Source: an uncultured Bacteroidota bacterium
GTDB taxonomy: Bacteria > Bacteroidota > Bacteroidia > Bacteroidales > DTGW01
Direction of reading: 5' to 3'
DNA: 64,000 bases
Assembly (NCBI GenBank): GCA_963726845.1
Contig: CAVSGB010000262.1
Span: 6,696 to 70,695, forward strand
Shown here: piece by piece, positions 20,188 through 59,147 of the stretch
Numbering within the stretch: position 1 is the stretch's first letter
Layout: every line of letters starts with the position of its first letter
Position numbers and translations under genes: made by a program
Notes under the pieces: generated by a model
What the model saw: only the letters and a program-made list of their open reading frames with translations
Told to the model about the DNA's origin: nothing
The model's database searches: none

Positions 20188-20860
20188 TTACCAGTTCACT
20201 TTTTTTGTCCCCGATTTGATAGTTGTTTCAATAAAACCCAATAGTTCATCCTTCCCTTTTTTTTCAATTGTTGATGTGAAAAAAACACCTGGCATTTCTT
20301 CCCAGTCATCAAGCATGGCTTTTTTAAAATTACTAAAATTGCTTTCCAATTTATTAGATGAAATCTTATCGGTTTTAGTGAAAATCAAAACAAATGGTAC
20401 CCGGAATTGTCCCAGGAAAGTTAAAAATTCTATATCTAATTTTTGTGGCCCAAGCCTTGAATCAATAAGCACAAAAAGACAAAGCAAATTTGAACGCTTC
20501 GTTATGTATCCTTTTATCAATTCGCTAAAATGCTCTTTGTCAGATTTTGATGCGCGGGCATAACCGTAACCTGGCAAATCGACCAGATACCAGCTATTTG
20601 CATCGGTCACAACCGGTTTTATGTCCTTTTTATGTAACTTTATTTTATCAGACTGGCTCAACGGTAAAACAATAAAATGATTGATAAGCTTTGTTTTTCC
20701 TGGTTTTGATGAAACCTTTGCTAAGTTTTTAACTCCCGTTATCATATTGATGAGAGAAGATTTGCCAACGTTCGGACCGGCCAATAAAAGCAAATTCGGG
20801 AATGTCACCTTTTGGGCATAATTTATAATCGTTGCTACTTTTAATAAACCGGACTTCCAT
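20188..20860 (-). CDS. engB: ribosome-biogenesis GTPase YihA/EngB, frame broken once near 20774
   Basis: ORF 20188..20808 has G1 NVGKSSLIN and G3 DLPGYGYA. The N-terminus MEVRFIKSSNDYKLCPKGDIPEFAFIGRS lies in another frame from the ATG at 20860. Confidence 0.85.
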
Positions 20861-20902
20861 TATATGCAATGAGTTATGAACAATAAATGCCAAACTTCCC
20901 AA

Positions 20903-21000
20903 CTCCTGTCTCCTGATTCCTGTCTCCTGTCTCCCGTCTCCTGCCTCCTGACTCCCGTCTCCGGATTCCTGCCTCCTGCCTCCGGTCTCCGGTCTCCTGT
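20903..21000. repeat. tandem heptamer array CTCCTGT-type, 14 in-phase units
   Basis: CTCCTGT CTCCTGA TTCCTGT CTCCTGT CTCCCGT CTCCTGC CTCCTGA CTCCCGT CTCCGGA TTCCTGC CTCCTGC CTCCGGT CTCCGGT CTCCTGT. The array ends 3 nt from the manA stop codon (21004). Confidence 0.95.
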
Positions 21001-21003
21001 TCC

Positions 21004-21984
21004 TTATTTAATATAGACCTCTAAAATTTGTGCTAACCCTTTGGGTTCCAGAATAAGATTTTTTATCGCGGCCGGAATTAATACACATTCACCCTTATCG
21101 ACCTCTACATTTTCAATCCCTTCAGTTTTTATAATGAAATTGCCATCAACAGCAATATAAATTACAAATGAATCAATAAGGATATAATCTTTTTCGACAG
21201 GTTTATCGAAATACAAAACATTGGTAAAAAAGTACGGGCAATCTACCATATTCGAAGTATGGTTTAGCCTGGTTTCATATTTTGATTTATAACACGGATA
21301 ATAATTAAAATCAATTGCTTTCAAGGCCAAGTCGGTATGAAGTTCACGTGGATTGCCTTTATCATCCTTTCGGTTCCAGTCGAAAATGCGATATGTGATA
21401 TCTGAAGATTGCTGAATTTCGGCAAGTAGGATCCCAGCACCAATTGCATGGATACGACCGGGCGGAAGGTAAAAAACGTCTCCCTTTTTTACCTTTTCGA
21501 AATTTAGGATTTCAGGAAGTGTATTGTTATTGAGATGATCAAGGTAAATTTTATCATCGACTTTTTGATTGAAACCAACTATCAATTCTGCTCCCGGCTC
21601 ATGGTCGACAATGTACCACATTTCAGCTTTCCCCGGACAATTGTGATATTCCCGGGCCATTGTATCATCGGGATGCACCTGGATTGAAAGTTTGTCGTTT
21701 GCATCGATGAACTTAATAAGCAAAGGGAATTTTTCGCCAAAAACCTCATAAACACTATCGCCTACCAAATCGCCCAGGTATATTTCAATAAGCTCATTCA
21801 AATTATTCCCGGCTAAGAAACCATTGCTGATCATTGAAACATCATCATTAACATCGGCTATATCCCAACTTTCACCGCAAACTATGGAAGCTCCTGTTTT
21901 GTGAAGTATATTTCTCAACCTGCTGCCGCCCCAAATTTTATCTTTTAAAATAGGATAGAACTTTAAAGGGTAAAGTTGGTTCAT
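21004..21984 (-). CDS. manA: class I mannose-6-phosphate isomerase
   Basis: 326 aa: MNQLYPLKFYPILKDKIWGG.., ..LSIQVHPDD.., ..GRIHAIGAG... Confidence 0.85.
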   Translation of the reverse strand: MNQLYPLKFYPILKDKIWGGSRLRNILHKTGASIVCGESWDIADVNDDVSMISNGFLAGNNLNELIEIYLGDLVGDSVYEVFGEKFPLLIKFIDANDKLSIQVHPDDTMAREYHNCPGKAEMWYIVDHEPGAELIVGFNQKVDDKIYLDHLNNNTLPEILNFEKVKKGDVFYLPPGRIHAIGAGILLAEIQQSSDITYRIFDWNRKDDKGNPRELHTDLALKAIDFNYYPCYKSKYETRLNHTSNMVDCPYFFTNVLYFDKPVEKDYILIDSFVIYIAVDGNFIIKTEGIENVEVDKGECVLIPAAIKNLILEPKGLAQILEVYIK

Positions 21985-24641: not shown

Positions 24642-25100
24642 ATAATTCTGCTTTTTCATCCTTTCTTACTGATACGAAAATGAGTTCAGTGACTTTTTAC
24701 TTTTTGATTAGAAAACACACTCGCTAAAACCATGCAAATATGTAGCATAGGTTATCTATTCGTTTTAGTATCCTATATTTAGTAAAATAGATTTGAACTT
24801 ATTAGATAATAATTTAAGAAATTGAGATTTTTCCTTGGTTTTGGAAGTTGTTTTTTTGGAAGTATTTTTTATTTACATTAGATTTGAAATCAATTTTTTA
24901 GTAATTCAAAAAACCAAAAATGTTCAAAAAAATATTTCCCAGTTATTTAGATGTATTCGAGATGAAAAAACACGACTATATATTAGGAATAACGACAATT
25001 GGAGTAATGAAAATGTTTGGGCGTAATTCTTGATTTCACTTCTGGTTGTCTATGTAGATTCAGAGTTACTTTCACATTATATAGATAGTTAACTTAAAAA

Positions 25101-45343: not shown

Positions 45344-46216
45344 ATGTCCCATAAATCAGGATTTGTAAATATTATCGGGAAACCCAATGTCGGGAAGTCG
45401 ACATTAATGAATGCTTTTGTCGGTGAGAAACTTTCAATTGTTACACCCAAGATACAAACCACACGGCATCGTATCATGGGAATTGTTAATGGAGAGGAAT
45501 ATCAGGTAGTTTTTTCCGATACACCTGGAATACTAAAGCCTAAATACAGGCTACAGGAAAAAATGATGGGGTTCGTGGAATCAGCATTTGAAGATGCGGA
45601 TATTATGGTAATACTGACTGAAAAGGATGACAAATTTGATACTGATGAATTTTTCGAAAAGATAAATAAATTAGATTTGCCATTATTGCTTGCGATAAAT
45701 AAAGCTGATTTGTCCGATCAGGAAGAAATGGTTGTATTGATAGAACTTTGGAAAAAACGTTTGCCAAAGGCTGAGGTATTTGTAATTTCTGCACTTAAAA
45801 ATTATAATGTCCAGGGGCTATTCAACAGGATACTTGAATTGTTGCCTGAAAACCCGCCATTTTACCCAAAAGATGATTTATCCGATAGGAACGTCCGTTT
45901 TTTTGTTACTGAAATTATCCGTGAAAAAATTTTATTTAATTATCAAAAAGAAATTCCTTATTCGGTTGAAATTACCATAGATTCATACCAGGAAGGGGAG
46001 AAGCTCGACAGGATTTCGGTGATCATTTATGTTGAACGGGATTCGCAAAAAGGAATTTTAATTGGTCATAAAGGCGAATCGTTAAAAAGGATTGGCATCC
46101 AGGCCCGAAAAGATATTGAAAAATTTGTCGGGAAACAGGTTTTCCTGGAAATGTTTGTTAAAGTGAAAAAAGATTGGCGTGATAGCGAAAGCCTGCTTAA
46201 AGGGTTTGGATATTAA
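45344..46216 (+). CDS. era: GTPase Era
   Basis: 290 aa with G1 GKPNVGKSTLMN, G3 DTPG and G4 NKAD, plus a C-terminal KH domain (..VERDSQKGILIGHKGESLKRIG..). Confidence 0.95.
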   Translation: MSHKSGFVNIIGKPNVGKSTLMNAFVGEKLSIVTPKIQTTRHRIMGIVNGEEYQVVFSDTPGILKPKYRLQEKMMGFVESAFEDADIMVILTEKDDKFDTDEFFEKINKLDLPLLLAINKADLSDQEEMVVLIELWKKRLPKAEVFVISALKNYNVQGLFNRILELLPENPPFYPKDDLSDRNVRFFVTEIIREKILFNYQKEIPYSVEITIDSYQEGEKLDRISVIIYVERDSQKGILIGHKGESLKRIGIQARKDIEKFVGKQVFLEMFVKVKKDWRDSESLLKGFGY

Positions 46217-46232
46217 AGAAATGGAGCCGAAA

Positions 46233-46330
46233 TCCGGTCTCTGGTCTCTTGTTTCCGGTTTCCTGACTCCTGTCTCCAGTTTCCTGACTTCTGACTCCAG
46301 TTTCCAGTTTCCAGTTTCCGGTCTCCGTTT
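46233..46330. repeat. tandem heptamer array TCCNGNY-type, 14 in-phase units
   Basis: TCCGGTC TCTGGTC TCTTGTT TCCGGTT TCCTGAC TCCTGTC TCCAGTT TCCTGAC TTCTGAC TCCAGTT x3 TCCGGTC TCCGTTT. It fills the convergent era/ftsZ gap and ends at the base before the ftsZ stop codon. Confidence 0.95.
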
Positions 46331-47785
46331 TTAATCTACATTATTATTGAGATATGGATTTTCAGGCCTTAACAATATTTTTCTTTCATCATCATCAATT
46401 AGCGTGAATTTTGAAATATCTGAATTGGCAGGGGTTTTCAAGTCATCAAAATTAACTTTCTTCCTTACATAAGCTGGTTGGTTTTCCATATCATCAATAA
46501 AATTTGTATCTCCCAAACCGGTTGTTAAATCTTTCTGGCGCGATTGATTTTTCTTCAATTCGTTCAACCTTTCATTTGATTTCGTTTTATTGATTTTAAC
46601 ATCGATATTATCGGGGCTGAAATTTTCTTCGGAATATGATGCGTTTGAAGACGATACAAAATCTAATTCAAGTTTCCGTTGGCGGGACTGTTCGGAATTT
46701 TCTTTCGTTTTAACTTCAAACATGCTGCTTGCATTAACCGTTTTGTGAGGCCTGTCTTCTGCAAGAGGAACATTAACAATCTGACGCTTACGATTATATA
46801 ATTCCGGAATTGAATTGGACTCAAACCCTGTGGCAATAATAGTTACACTAATCTTCCCACCTAAAGAAGGTTCATTTCCTGTTCCCCAAATCATAAGCGA
46901 ATCTTTGGCCACAGCACTTGTAACGAAATCAGTAATTATTCCAACTTCATCCATCGATACTTCTTCATCGCCTGATGTTATATTGAGCAAAATATTTTTT
47001 GCGCCGCGAATGTCGTTGTTATTTAAAAGTGGTGAATTTAATGCTTGTTGAATGGCATCGTGGGCACGGTTTTCACCTTCAGCAACTGCCGATCCCATAA
47101 TTGCCACTCCGCTATTGCTCATAACTGTTTGCACATCGGCAAAGTCAACATTGATATAGCCATGAACGGTTATAATTTCTGCAATTCCCTTTGCCGCTGT
47201 AGTTAGCACGTTGTCTGCACGTTTAAAGGCTTCTGAAAGTTTTTGGTCACCATACATTTCGCGTAGTTTCTCATTATGGATGACAAGCAGGGAATCGACA
47301 TAATTGCGTATTTCATTTATCCCTTCTATTGCCTGGTTAATACGCTGATGTCCTTCGAAACGGAATGGTACAGTAACAATAGCAACTGTAAGAATGCCCA
47401 TTTCTTTTGCAGTTTTAGCAATAACCGGCGCAGCGCCAGTTCCTGTACCACCTCCCATTCCAGCAGTTATAAAAACCATCTTGGTATTTGACGACAACAA
47501 ATCAATTACATCCTGTAAGTTTTCAATTGCCGATTGTCTGCCAATATCTGGTTTATTGCCAGCTCCCCGGCCTTCGGTGAGAGAGTTGCCAAGCTGAATT
47601 TTAACTGGTACCGGACTGTTTGCCAATGCCTGGGCATCGGTATTACAAACTACAAAATCGACATCTTTTATGCCCGACCGGTACATGTGGTTTACCGCGT
47701 TGCTTCCACCGCCTCCTACACCAATAACTTTAATTATGGAGGATTTGTGTTTTTGCAAATCAAAAGGAATTAAATCGTCTATCAT
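46331..47785 (-). CDS. ftsZ: cell division protein FtsZ
   Basis: Signature motifs are IKVIGVGGGGSNAVNHM and GMGGGTGTGAAPVIA. The listed ORF is open to 48010, but the canonical N-terminus MIDDLIPFDLQKHKSSIIKVIG starts at the ATG at 47785. Confidence 0.93.
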   Translation of the reverse strand: MIDDLIPFDLQKHKSSIIKVIGVGGGGSNAVNHMYRSGIKDVDFVVCNTDAQALANSPVPVKIQLGNSLTEGRGAGNKPDIGRQSAIENLQDVIDLLSSNTKMVFITAGMGGGTGTGAAPVIAKTAKEMGILTVAIVTVPFRFEGHQRINQAIEGINEIRNYVDSLLVIHNEKLREMYGDQKLSEAFKRADNVLTTAAKGIAEIITVHGYINVDFADVQTVMSNSGVAIMGSAVAEGENRAHDAIQQALNSPLLNNNDIRGAKNILLNITSGDEEVSMDEVGIITDFVTSAVAKDSLMIWGTGNEPSLGGKISVTIIATGFESNSIPELYNRKRQIVNVPLAEDRPHKTVNASSMFEVKTKENSEQSRQRKLELDFVSSSNASYSEENFSPDNIDVKINKTKSNERLNELKKNQSRQKDLTTGLGDTNFIDDMENQPAYVRKKVNFDDLKTPANSDISKFTLIDDDERKILLRPENPYLNNNVD

Positions 47786-48032
47786 GGTTATAAATTTTTG
47801 ATATAATTTTGAATTCTTGGTTGGATAAAAATCTATTTTTAACCTTCGTTCCTTTTTGGCGTTCCAACGGGAACCAAAAAGAACCTGGCTGAAAAAACTC
47901 GCTCCATCTCGTACCTCGACTTCGCTCAAACAGTTTTCAGCCGAAAAGGAATTGATATTTGACGCTTCGCAGTTTCTTAATAAGTTTAAATTAGATTTTT
48001 GAATTTTCATCTCTTATAATAAATAGCCGTTT

Positions 48033-50233: not shown

Positions 50234-50261
50234 ATAATTCATAATTCATAATTCATAATTT
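50234..50261. repeat. tandem heptamer array ATAATTC x3 + ATAATTT (same unit as 59015..59147)
   Basis: It overlaps the last codons and stop codon of murC (..KQNYEL*) and fills the murC/ftsQ spacer. Confidence 0.9.
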
Positions 50262-54205: not shown

Positions 54206-54422
54206 TGTTAGGTGTTAGGTATTTGCTATTAGGTTTTAGTTTTTTATTTATTTTAAATATTTGTCTTTTTTAATTTGTCATTTGTCATTTGTAATTTGTA
54301 ATTAGTCATTTGTAATTTGTCATTTGTAATTTGTAATTTGTAATTTGTAATTTGTAATTTGTAATTTGTAATTTGTAATTTGTAATTTGTAATTTGTAAT
54401 TTGTAATTTGTAATTTGTAATT
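54206..54422. repeat. tandem heptamer array, 31 units in a single phase (TGTTAGG-type grading into TGTCATT/TGTAATT; last 14 units are perfect TGTAATT)
   Basis: The phase was checked unit by unit from the base next to the ftsW ATG (54205) to 6 nt before the murD stop (54429). ORF 54320..54610 (ITNYKLQ repeats) is an artefact of this array. Confidence 0.95.
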
Positions 54423-57331: not shown

Positions 57332-57559
57332 ATTAATGTGCTTATTAATTGATATGCTAATGTGCTAATTGTTTATAATCAAAATTTAAAATGATTTTTC
57401 ATACTTTAATTTTTGTTTTTGAATTCAAAATTTTATTGTTTCAGTTTTATATTTGTTGTTTTTTCATTTTCACATCGACAAATCAGCACATCAGCACATC
57501 GGCACATCGGCACATCGGCACATCAGCAAATCAGCAAATTGTCGCATTAGCAAATTGTT
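57332..57559. repeat. two oppositely oriented octamer arrays (GCTAATGT-type 57332..57371; ACATCAGC-type, 11 in-phase units, 57472..57559) separated by about 100 nt
   Basis: The right arm reads ACATCGAC AAATCAGC ACATCAGC ACATCGGC x3 ACATCAGC AAATCAGC AAATTGTC GCATTAGC AAATTGTT. The left arm is its approximate reverse complement. The right arm supplies the last codons and stop of murE. Confidence 0.9.
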
Positions 57560-59014: not shown

Positions 59015-59147
59015 ATAATTCATAATTCATAATTCATAATTCATAATTCATAATTCATAATTCATAATTCATAATTCATAATTCATAATTCATAATTCAT
59101 AATTCATAATTCATAATTCATAATTCATAATTCATAATTCATAATTT
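59015..59147. repeat. tandem heptamer array ATAATTC x18 + ATAATTT
   Basis: Perfect periodicity from 59015. The array ends at the base before the ftsI stop codon (59148) and fills the ftsI/murE spacer. Confidence 0.95.

What the first reader, a model, noticed from the sequence alone, without database searches (positions are those of the whole stretch)
20903..21003. A 14-unit CTCCTGT-type heptamer array sits directly behind the manA stop codon
There are fourteen in-phase units with variation confined to positions 5-7 (CTCCTGT/CTCCTGA/CTCCCGT/CTCCGGT...). On the manA/engB coding strand this is (ACAGGAG)n-like, a run of GGAG/AGGAG motifs without stops in any frame.

The array is GC-richer than the surroundings. 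A second array of the same family, also with 14 units, sits behind the ftsZ stop (46233-46330).
Basis: seen in the sequence. Interest (0 to 1): 0.5.

Follow-up and report, generated by a model that had tools for sequence, protein, structure and literature searches.

The report
Purine heptamer repeats behind stop codons
The two 14-unit arrays are real, strain-variable 7-base repeats that start right after the manA and ftsZ stop codons with their purine-rich strand on the mRNA. They are a Bacteroidales example of a repeat class already described in Xanthomonas and Nostoc, whose function is still unknown.

Summary
Both arrays exist as described. Array 1 is at 20903-21003 and array 2 at 46233-46330, on the minus strand. 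Each starts 0-4 nt after a conserved native stop codon (manA, ftsZ).

On the mRNA strand the unit is CNGGARN. The host is an uncultured Bacteroidales MAG. It carries about 46-48 strong arrays of this family, within a much larger population of 7- and 8-nt arrays.

- In this genome, 16 arrays lie within 12 nt behind a same-strand stop with the purine strand as sense. Only 3 are in the opposite sense.
- Two unrelated Bacteroidales genomes repeat the pattern (7:1 and 5:0).

Other results:
- Inverted pairs always have the purine arm first and form long post-stop hairpins.
- Array 1 differs by a net three units between 99.5%-identical strains. Array 2 is stable.
- Relatives lack arrays at the same sites.
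- CsrA is absent. Rfam finds nothing. Canonical G-quadruplexes are not possible.

The position, strand rule, inverted pairs and near-identical unit match the GGGAATC-type heptamer repeats of Rehm et al. 2015. I therefore class this as a new member of a known, functionally unexplained kind.

The scan has noted similar arrays in other genomes before.

The parts
20903..21003 (-). Array 1: 14 heptamer units plus a partial one. On the mRNA strand the unit is CNGGARN (mostly CAGGAGA/CCGGAGA). It fills 101 of the 137 nt between manA and engB.
   Evidence: There is no significant RNA structure (z = -0.19). Unit number is polymorphic against JGI contig L124.
21004..21984 (-). manA (class I mannose-6-phosphate isomerase). 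Its TAA stop at 21004-21006 directly precedes array 1. The C-terminus (..LEVYIK*) is like that of homologues.
20188..20866 (-). engB/ysxC, the gene downstream of array 1. Its ATG is at 20866, 36 nt after the array. In this assembly it is split by a +1 frameshift inside the P-loop codons (about 20778-20781).
46233..46330 (-). Array 2: 14 more degenerate units (CCGGAAA/CTGGAAA/CAGGAGT...). It starts 2 nt after the ftsZ stop and fills the convergent era/ftsZ gap.
   Evidence: It is identical in two other assemblies whose flanks are 99.4% and 99.9% identical.
46217..46236 (+). Short inverted arm of about 3 units, purine-rich on the era strand. It pairs with units of array 2. On the ftsZ transcript this gives a stem followed by AUUUCUUU, so the gap is an asymmetric purine-arm-first inverted pair for both convergent genes.
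   Evidence: Fold (MFE -34.6 kcal/mol, z = -1.28, so not significant on its own). Sequence.
46331..47785 (-). ftsZ (484 aa from the ATG at 47785). The 559-aa ORF listed is a 5' over-extension. The C-terminal ...ENPYLNNNVD* and the stop position are conserved in relatives.
   Evidence: (called product 484 aa).
45344..46216 (+). era, convergent with ftsZ. Its read-through RNA would carry the pyrimidine strand of array 2.

Best explanation
The two arrays are non-coding simple-sequence DNA. They are members of a dispersed family of GGA-core heptamer repeats (unit CNGGARN on the purine strand) that grows and shrinks by whole units, through replication slippage or unequal exchange.

In this lineage the family sits in the least constrained part of a compact genome: the first bases after a stop codon, away from the next gene's promoter and leader.

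Its basic form is a GC-rich inverted pair, purine arm then pyrimidine arm, that can fold into a long post-stop stem-loop of terminator or intercistronic-hairpin type. The two window arrays are strongly expanded purine arms. The ftsZ array still has a short opposing arm and a U-rich tail. The manA array has none and is most likely read through into engB as an unstructured purine-rich spacer.

Shown: family membership, position, strand bias, inverted-pair polarity, unit-number polymorphism, and absence at the same sites in relatives.

Inferred:
- slippage as the mechanism;
- origin from hairpin arms;
- the cause of the strand bias. Candidates are inheritance from the purine-first polarity of terminator stems, R-loop-favoured instability when the G-rich strand is the non-template strand behind the last ribosome, or selection against C-rich Rho-loading RNA inside operons;
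- that exact unit number has no function.
For: - Period 7 is strongly over-represented in the genome: 171 arrays against 38 for period 6 and 13 for period 9. The family has about 46-48 strong arrays.
- Array 1 differs by a net +3 units, through several separate unit gains and losses, between strains 99.5% identical over 7.5 kb. Outside the array that alignment has only two indels: one 15-nt tandem copy and one single base.
- The more degenerate array 2 is unchanged at 0.65% flank divergence.
- Orthologous 3' flanks carry no such array. This holds for ftsZ in 16 relatives (G001 has a short, degenerate 7-nt-periodic stretch there) and for manA in 24 Bacteroidales. Several of the ftsZ flanks read as purine-first GC-rich hairpins such as GGAGGG..CCCTCC (my reading of the sequences; no structure tool was run on them).
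- Stop adjacency and sense orientation: 16:3 in this genome, 7:1 in G321, 5:0 in G272.
- Stop-codon type is not biased.
- All 7/8-nt arrays of the genome, whatever their unit, lie nearer the stop than the start (72 vs 39) and put the purine-richer strand on the mRNA (49 vs 19).
- Inverted pairs are purine-arm-first 11-12 times against 1, and fold at -25 to -42 kcal/mol.
- MutL is present. From established knowledge, bacterial mismatch repair does not correct loops as large as 7 nt.
- The same positional rules, inverted pairs and length variation are published for (GGGANTN)n repeats (PMC4692102).
Against: - In-situ slippage alone does not explain why one unit consensus recurs at about 46-48 loci here, in 38 of 400 other Bacteroidales genomes, and almost letter for letter in Xanthomonas.
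- Variation inside array 1 avoids the four core positions in all 14 units, which hints at constraint or a sequence-specific process.
- Array 1 has no opposing arm or terminator-like fold, so 'expanded hairpin arm' is an inference for it.
Confidence: 0.55

Rival explanations
1. The arrays are a selected cis-element of the 3' UTR or intercistronic RNA (or of the DNA). They would be a periodic platform of C..GGA sites read every 7 nt by an unknown RNA- or ssDNA-binding protein or by the post-termination ribosome. Possible effects are on mRNA stability, translational coupling to the next gene, or insulation from antisense transcription.
For: - Core positions C, G, G, A are invariant in all 14 units of array 1 while three positions vary freely.
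- The same core recurs in unrelated Bacteroidales, about 7-8 times more often than the reversed control pattern, and in Xanthomonas.
- The strand and position rule was reproduced in three genomes.
- A degenerate array of the same type lies behind ftsZ in the sister genus G001.
Against: - No partner is known. CsrA, the classic reader of repeated CAGGA-type sites, is absent from all five genomes tested.
- GGAA is as frequent as GGAG, so anti-Shine-Dalgarno pairing is not the conserved property.
- Unit number is free to vary between near-identical strains.
- Close relatives do without arrays at the same genes.
- Upstream genes are unrelated housekeeping genes.
- Rehm et al. found no regulatory role for the Xanthomonas repeats.
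Confidence: 0.2
2. The arrays are solo or decayed arms of a small mobile hairpin element. Its full form would be a four-helix-bundle (23S rRNA intervening-sequence protein / Avd-like, PF05635) gene bracketed by inverted heptamer arrays. The element would insert behind stop codons, and slippage would then remodel the arms.
For: - The genome has 13 PF05635 genes.
- Seven have inverted 7/8-nt-periodic flanking arms scoring above the 95th percentile of control genes, each with a different unit family that is also abundant genome-wide.
- One of these, G000:C49:7435-7722, is bracketed by CNGGARN arms.
- Gene-less purine-first inverted pairs occur at 11 or more loci.
- Earlier notes of this scan report the same arrangement in other Bacteroidales.
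Against: - No conserved element termini or target-site duplications are visible in the flanks.
- No filled/empty site pair was found.
- The most array-rich genome, G321, has only one weak PF05635 match. G007 has 16 PF05635 matches but no array of this unit.
- Y1 transposase (RAYT-like) genes are in all ten genomes of the family, so they do not track the arrays.
- The causal direction could be the reverse, with the gene landing in pre-existing hairpins.
Confidence: 0.12
3. The arrays act through G-quadruplex formation in DNA or RNA, as proposed for the GGGAATC and GGGGAYT repeats.
For: - The unit consensus and genomic behaviour are close to the published G4-forming repeats.
- With quadruplex states allowed, ViennaRNA predicts two two-layer quadruplexes in array 1, built from GGAGG pairs.
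Against: - Array 1 has only 3 GGG runs and array 2 has none. Four G3 tracts are never available, and no quadruplex is predicted in array 2.
- G272 arrays are mostly CAGGAAG/CCGGAAG.
- The positional rules therefore hold without canonical G4 potential.
Confidence: 0.05
4. The arrays are translated: stop-free sequence behind the stop would give C-terminal extensions by read-through or frameshifting.
For: - All three sense frames are open across array 1.
- Arrays of the family inside ORFs are read as Gly/Glu/Arg/Asp/Thr-rich inserts.
Against: - The manA and ftsZ stops are at the conserved positions.
- The stop-codon types next to arrays match the genome background.
- Unit number changes by 7 nt, which would scramble any frame.
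- Nothing suggests recoding.
Confidence: 0.03

Closest known systems
G-rich heptameric simple sequence repeats (GGGAATC / (GGGANTN)n of Xanthomonas; GGGGA(C/T)T of Nostoc), Rehm et al. 2015, PLoS One, PMC4692102
   Same: - In the same register the units are almost the same: NGGARNC here, GGGAATC there. G321 carries literal (GGGAATC/GGGAGTC)n.
- Many dispersed loci, about 90% intergenic.
- Much closer to the 5' neighbouring ORF than to the next one.
- Within 0-50 bp of, or overlapping, the stop codon with the G-rich strand on the coding strand.
- Frequent inverted pairs.
- Under-represented between divergent genes.
- Length varies between close relatives.
- No function found.
   Different: - Different phylum and a 35% GC genome.
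- The first G of the GGG is not conserved, so canonical quadruplexes cannot form.
- No clear preference for four units in the long arrays.
- Arrays here reach 14-17 units, and 47-53 units in G321 and G272.
Long simple sequence repeats with 5-11-nt units (Mrazek, Guo and Shah 2007, as summarised in PMC4679880)
   Same: Tandem arrays far longer than chance; heptamers are the dominant unit length; scattered phylogenetic distribution; slippage is the proposed origin.
   Different: That work is a statistical survey. It does not describe this unit, the post-stop rule or Bacteroidales.
TAACTGA heptamer direct repeats of Beggiatoaceae, cyanobacteria and five Bacteroidetes (MacGregor 2015, PMC4679880)
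   Same: One heptamer repeated at many intergenic loci with a fixed orientation relative to genes. Long arrays occur in some Bacteroidetes. Horizontal spread or a binding protein has been suspected.
   Different: Different unit. Those repeats sit mainly just upstream of start codons, and there are 2-6 copies in most species.
STRR heptamers of heterocystous cyanobacteria (Mazel et al. 1990; recalled from memory, not read here)
   Same: Dispersed heptanucleotide tandem repeats, about a hundred loci per genome, intergenic, some able to form stem-loops.
   Different: Cyanobacterial, with other units (CCCCAGT etc.). Membership is defined by taxon and sequence.
REP/BIME and REPIN-RAYT palindromic elements
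   Same: Works like: GC-rich imperfect hairpins placed directly behind stop codons and between operon genes, in many copies.
   Different: REPs are conserved in sequence between copies and tied to a RAYT gene. Here the arms differ between loci, are 7-nt periodic and change by units, and Y1 transposase genes do not track the arrays.

Membership tests
G-rich heptameric SSRs of the GGGANTN type (Rehm et al. 2015) | Tandem heptamer with conserved GGGA.T. core | tested here: inconclusive
   The GGA and the C are conserved. The first G is present in only 2 of 14 units of array 1 and in none of array 2. The T position is free.
G-rich heptameric SSRs of the GGGANTN type (Rehm et al. 2015) | Many dispersed, mainly intergenic loci | tested here: met
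   There are 48 merged strong arrays, of which 40 are intergenic. Two of the 48 are duplicates from the palindromic contig C336.
G-rich heptameric SSRs of the GGGANTN type (Rehm et al. 2015) | Close to or overlapping the stop codon, with the G-rich strand on the coding strand, and nearer the 5' ORF than the 3' ORF | tested here: met
   16:3 within 12 nt in G000. The stop side is nearer in 16 of 17 (hand tally of the table). G321 gives 7:1 and G272 gives 5:0.
G-rich heptameric SSRs of the GGGANTN type (Rehm et al. 2015) | Frequent inverted (convergent) pairs | tested here: met
   11-12 purine-first pairs against 1.
G-rich heptameric SSRs of the GGGANTN type (Rehm et al. 2015) | Four or more G3 tracts able to form a G-quadruplex | tested here: not met
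   Array 1 has 3 GGG runs and array 2 has 0. Only two-layer quadruplexes are predicted, and only in array 1.
G-rich heptameric SSRs of the GGGANTN type (Rehm et al. 2015) | Unit number varies between close relatives | tested here: met
   Array 1 has 14 units here and about 17 in L124, with 99.5% flank identity. Array 2 is invariant.
Long simple sequence repeats (unit 5-11 nt) | Tandem array longer than expected by chance in that genome | tested here: met
   TRF scores 106-124.
Intrinsic (Rho-independent) terminator | GC-rich hairpin followed by a U tract at the 3' end of the transcript | tested here: inconclusive
   Array 1 has no hairpin (z = -0.19) and no terminator-like site in the gap. Array 2 has a distal stem with its short inverted arm, followed by AUUUCUUU. 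Transcript ends were not testable.
CsrA/RsmA-titrating GGA-repeat RNAs (CsrB/RsmZ type) | A CsrA-family protein encoded in the genome | tested here: not met
   PF02599 gives no match in G000, G001, G006, G321 or G272. The control genomes are positive.
REP/REPIN-RAYT elements | Sequence-conserved palindrome copies associated with a RAYT gene | tested here: not met
   The arms differ between loci. PF01797 is present in all ten genomes of the family, whether or not they carry arrays.
Phase-variable contingency loci | Repeat in the promoter or 5' coding region of a surface or restriction gene, so that unit changes switch expression | tested here: not met
   The arrays lie 3' of housekeeping genes (manA, ftsZ). 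A 7-nt change behind a stop alters no reading frame.
Known RNA families (Rfam 15) | Match to a covariance model | tested here: not met
   Only two tRNAs are found in the window, and nothing at E<=1 in 20700-21200.

The most novel reading that the evidence does not exclude
GGA-core heptamer arrays (NGGARNC) are not accidents of slippage. They would be a cross-phylum element (Bacteroidales, Xanthomonas and, per other notes of this scan, further phyla) that is laid down or maintained specifically at the first bases after stop codons, on the sense strand, by one shared sequence-specific process. Candidates are a mobile hairpin cassette linked to Avd-like four-helix-bundle genes, or instability coupled to where translation ends and naked G-rich RNA can invade the template. 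Because most units here lack GGG, the published G-quadruplex rationale would then be wrong for the whole class.
Probability: 0.15. Interest if true: 0.65.

Novelty: new member of a known kind. Interest (0 to 1): 0.3.

Why it matters
Taken alone the finding is ordinary: it is fast-evolving repeat DNA of a described class.

Its value is comparative. It shows that the unusual rules reported for Xanthomonas and Nostoc heptamer repeats also hold in Bacteroidales, for a near-identical unit that cannot form canonical G-quadruplexes. Those rules are: start at the stop codon, G-rich strand on the mRNA, and purine-first inverted pairs. This weakens the only mechanistic idea so far offered for the class. 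It points instead to something tied to the end of translation or to terminator hairpins.

Practically, such arrays break short-read assemblies. Contigs end in or near them. They can also inflate ORF calls, because they are stop-free.

Tried and rejected
- **CsrA sponge idea.** The units resemble CsrB's CAGGA repeats, but CsrA is absent from all five genomes tested.
- **RAYT/IS200-type transposase association.** PF01797 is in all ten genomes of the family, so there is no link to the arrays.
- **Loss of mismatch repair.** MutL is present in array-rich and array-free genomes alike, and a MutS gene lies near the window.
- **Stop-codon preference.** TAA 10, TGA 5, TAG 1, which equals the genome background.
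- **Known RNA families.** None.
- **Structured RNA at array 1.** None.
- **PF05635 gene count against arrays across genomes.** No simple correlation.
- **RNA-level wobble bias in the inverted pairs.** By my hand comparison of the two energies per locus, the sense strand folds better at 6 of the 9 hairpins with a defined sense strand. This is not significant.
- **Contigs spanning array 1.** Exact-protein look-ups for manA and three neighbouring genes found no such contigs. Only one metagenome contig reached it, and that contig ends in the array.
- **C336 arrays.** They are counted twice in some raw lists because that contig is a palindromic assembly chimera. They do not enter the stop-adjacency counts.

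Full report
**Observation**

Array 1 is at 20903-21003 (TRF: 14.7 copies, consensus CTCCTGT). Array 2 is at 46233-46330 (13.6 copies).

Both lie on the minus-strand transcripts. The manA ORF (21004..21984) ends with TAA at 21004-21006. The ftsZ ORF ends with TAA at 46331-46333. In each case the array is the next thing on the mRNA.

NCBIfam confirms manA, YsxC/EngB, FtsZ and Era. Read on the mRNA strand, the unit is C-N-G-G-A-R-N. In array 1 the C, G, G and A never vary in 14 units. All three frames are open across array 1. GC is 0.63 and 0.53 for the two arrays, against 0.353 for the genome.

The arrays are not artefacts. Array 2 is letter-identical in an ENA contig and a JGI contig. Array 1 is present in a JGI contig.

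**Genome context**

The window is part of a 4.76-Mb, 376-contig draft of an uncultured Bacteroidales bacterium.

The genome is full of 7-nt arrays and, less so, 8-nt arrays. There are 171 period-7 runs of at least 35 nt, against 38 for period 6, 83 for period 8, 13 for period 9 and 4 for period 10. Dozens of different units occur.

A unit-aware scan for CNGGARN finds 115 arrays of at least 4 units, against 16 in a shuffled genome. After merging there are 48 strong ones, two of which are duplicates from a palindromic contig. A 5-unit pattern gives 71 windows here and 0 for the reversed control.

- Of the 40 intergenic strong arrays, 16 have a same-strand stop codon within 12 nt 5' of the array read on its purine strand.
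- Only 3 have the pyrimidine strand on the adjacent mRNA. All three are in convergent or self-complementary settings (p = 0.004).
- Where a sense stop lies within 20 nt, the gap on the stop side is the smaller one in 16 of 17 cases. This is my hand tally of the table.
- Stop-codon type is unbiased.
- Eight arrays lie inside ORFs and are read as Gly/Glu/Arg/Asp/Thr-rich inserts. Examples are a 1443-aa protein and a Val-tRNA-synthetase-like protein.

The rule is not peculiar to this unit. Among all 7/8-nt arrays in co-directional gene pairs, 72 are nearer the upstream stop and 39 nearer the downstream start. Forty-two lie within 6 nt of the stop. The purine-richer strand is on the mRNA 49 times against 19. 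For comparison, ordinary post-stop sequence is purine-rich in 53% and pyrimidine-rich in 37% of cases.

**Inverted pairs**

Arrays of the family often come as a purine array followed within 120 nt by its approximate reverse complement. There are 11-12 such pairs against one of the opposite polarity.

They fold into long imperfect stems of -25 to -42 kcal/mol. These stems begin 1-10 nt after a stop and often end in a T-rich stretch.

Array 2 is an asymmetric case. About three units of opposite sense at 46217-46236 pair with array units. On the ftsZ transcript this leaves a stem followed by AUUUCUUU, though the fold is not significant on its own (z = -1.28). Array 1 has no partner and no significant structure (z = -0.19; no terminator-like site).

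**Dynamics**

The JGI contig L124 is 99.5% identical to the window over 7.5 kb. Its manA array has about 17 units instead of 14. The difference arises from several separate gains and losses of whole units.

Array 2 is more degenerate. It is unchanged in contigs 99.4% and 99.9% identical in the flanks.

**Relatives**

The FtsZ C-terminus and stop are conserved in the relatives examined. None of the 16 relative ftsZ 3' flanks carries a comparable array. Several of them read as purine-first GC-rich hairpins, but that is my reading of the sequences; no structure tool was run on them. Only the sister genus G001 has a short, degenerate 7-nt-periodic stretch there.

None of 24 Bacteroidales manA loci has an array. 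In some, engB follows manA after about 30 nt.

Within the taxonomic family, only G000 and G001 carry arrays of at least 5 units. Across 400 other Bacteroidales genomes, 38 carry them. They are scattered over many families and are about 7-8 times more frequent than the reversed control.

Two array-rich, unrelated genomes were examined locus by locus. G321 has arrays up to 47 units, partly literal GGGAATC/GGGAGTC, and gives 7 sense-stop-adjacent arrays against 1. G272 has CNGGAAG units up to 53 copies and gives 5 against 0.

**Comparison with the literature**

Rehm et al. 2015 (PMC4692102) describe (GGGANTN)n repeats in Xanthomonas and GGGGAYT repeats in Nostoc with these properties:
- about 185 loci per genome, around 90% intergenic;
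- average 28 nt from the 5' ORF against 160 nt from the next ORF;
- within 50 bp of, or overlapping, the stop codon with the G-rich strand on the coding strand;
- 70-75 inverted pairs;
- length variation between sister species;
- mostly transcribed;
- no function found, with G-quadruplex formation proposed.

In the same register the units are NGGARNC here and GGGAATC there. The present arrays therefore belong to that kind. The main difference is that array 1 has three GGG runs and array 2 has none, so canonical quadruplexes are impossible.

The wider frame is the long simple sequence repeats of Mrazek et al. and MacGregor's TAACTGA repeats (PMC4679880).

**Ideas tested and dropped**

- CsrA is absent.
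- Y1 transposase genes are in all ten family genomes, so they give no association.
- MutL is present in all genomes tested.
- Rfam finds nothing.

**A lead from earlier notes of this scan**

This genome has 13 PF05635 genes (23S rRNA intervening-sequence / Avd-like four-helix-bundle). Seven are bracketed by inverted 7/8-nt-periodic arms scoring above the 95th percentile of control genes. Each has a different unit family that is also common genome-wide. One has CNGGARN arms.

However, PF05635 copy number does not follow array load across genomes. G321 has one weak match. G007 has 16 matches and no array of this unit. So the gene is not needed for the arrays.

**Verdict**

The most likely reading (about 55%) is hypermutable, largely non-functional repeat DNA. 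It would derive from or be related to purine-first post-stop hairpin arms, be tolerated only just behind stop codons, and be transcribed as a purine-rich spacer. Array 2 would still form part of a bidirectional stem between era and ftsZ.

A selected periodic binding platform (about 20%) and a mobile hairpin cassette (about 12%) remain open. The recurrence of one core across lineages is not explained by slippage alone.

The finding is a new member of a known but unexplained kind, and similar arrays have already been recorded by this scan in other genomes.

Noticed in passing
window 20729-20866 (about 20778-20781): engB/ysxC is split by a +1 frameshift exactly between the GRS and NVGKS codons of the P-loop. 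The ortholog in L026 is continuous. This is either an assembly or sequencing error in the MAG or a real inactivation of a normally essential GTPase.
   Followed up: partly
window 47786-48010: The ftsA-ftsZ spacer, which the ORF list wrongly adds to ftsZ as 75 extra codons, holds a dispersed non-heptamer repeat. It has translated matches at 9 or more other places in the genome (C124, C275, C81, C152, C131, C299, C354, C308, C171).
   Followed up: no
window 54259-54422, 59015-59146, 57471-57536, 50234-50260, 1885-1928: Other long 7- and 8-nt arrays of different units lie between dcw-cluster genes and elsewhere: ATTTGTA x23, a perfect ATAATTC x19, CACATCAG x8 and TAATGTGC x5.5. They were already reported by another follow-up on this window.
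   Followed up: partly
window 24839-24870: A 15-nt tandem duplication (TRF period 15, 2.1 copies) has one copy fewer in the 99.5%-identical JGI contig L124. This is a second strain-level repeat polymorphism.
   Followed up: no
G000:C162:24072-24690, C258:4405-4846, C323:1645-2114, C47:7850-8393, C265:25135-25606, C285:3970-4433, C49:7268-7945: Small PF05635 genes (23S rRNA intervening-sequence / Avd-like four-helix-bundle proteins; 13 in the genome) sit between inverted 7/8-nt arrays. Each copy has a different unit family, and one has CNGGARN arms.
   Followed up: partly
G000:C152:29291-29409; C71:25628-25655; C157:1777-1811; C326:7746-7836: Arrays of the same family lie in frame inside ORFs and are read as charged low-complexity inserts or tails. 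The ORFs are a 1443-aa protein, a Val-tRNA-synthetase-like protein, an ABC ATPase-like protein and the C-terminus of a 396-aa protein.
   Followed up: partly
G000:C336:7740-23256: The contig is a 15.5-kb palindrome of itself at 98.5% identity, most likely an assembly chimera. Repeats on it are counted twice in raw scans.
   Followed up: partly
G000:C262:6019-6114 (about 600 nt before the window start): A purine-first inverted pair of the same family fills the spacer between two co-directional genes. It starts 9 nt after the stop and ends 19 nt before the next start.
   Followed up: partly
L107:1490-1600 (G001:C21): In the sister genus, a CCGGARA array starts right at a stop codon. It is followed directly by a second array of another unit (CTCTTTG).
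   Followed up: no
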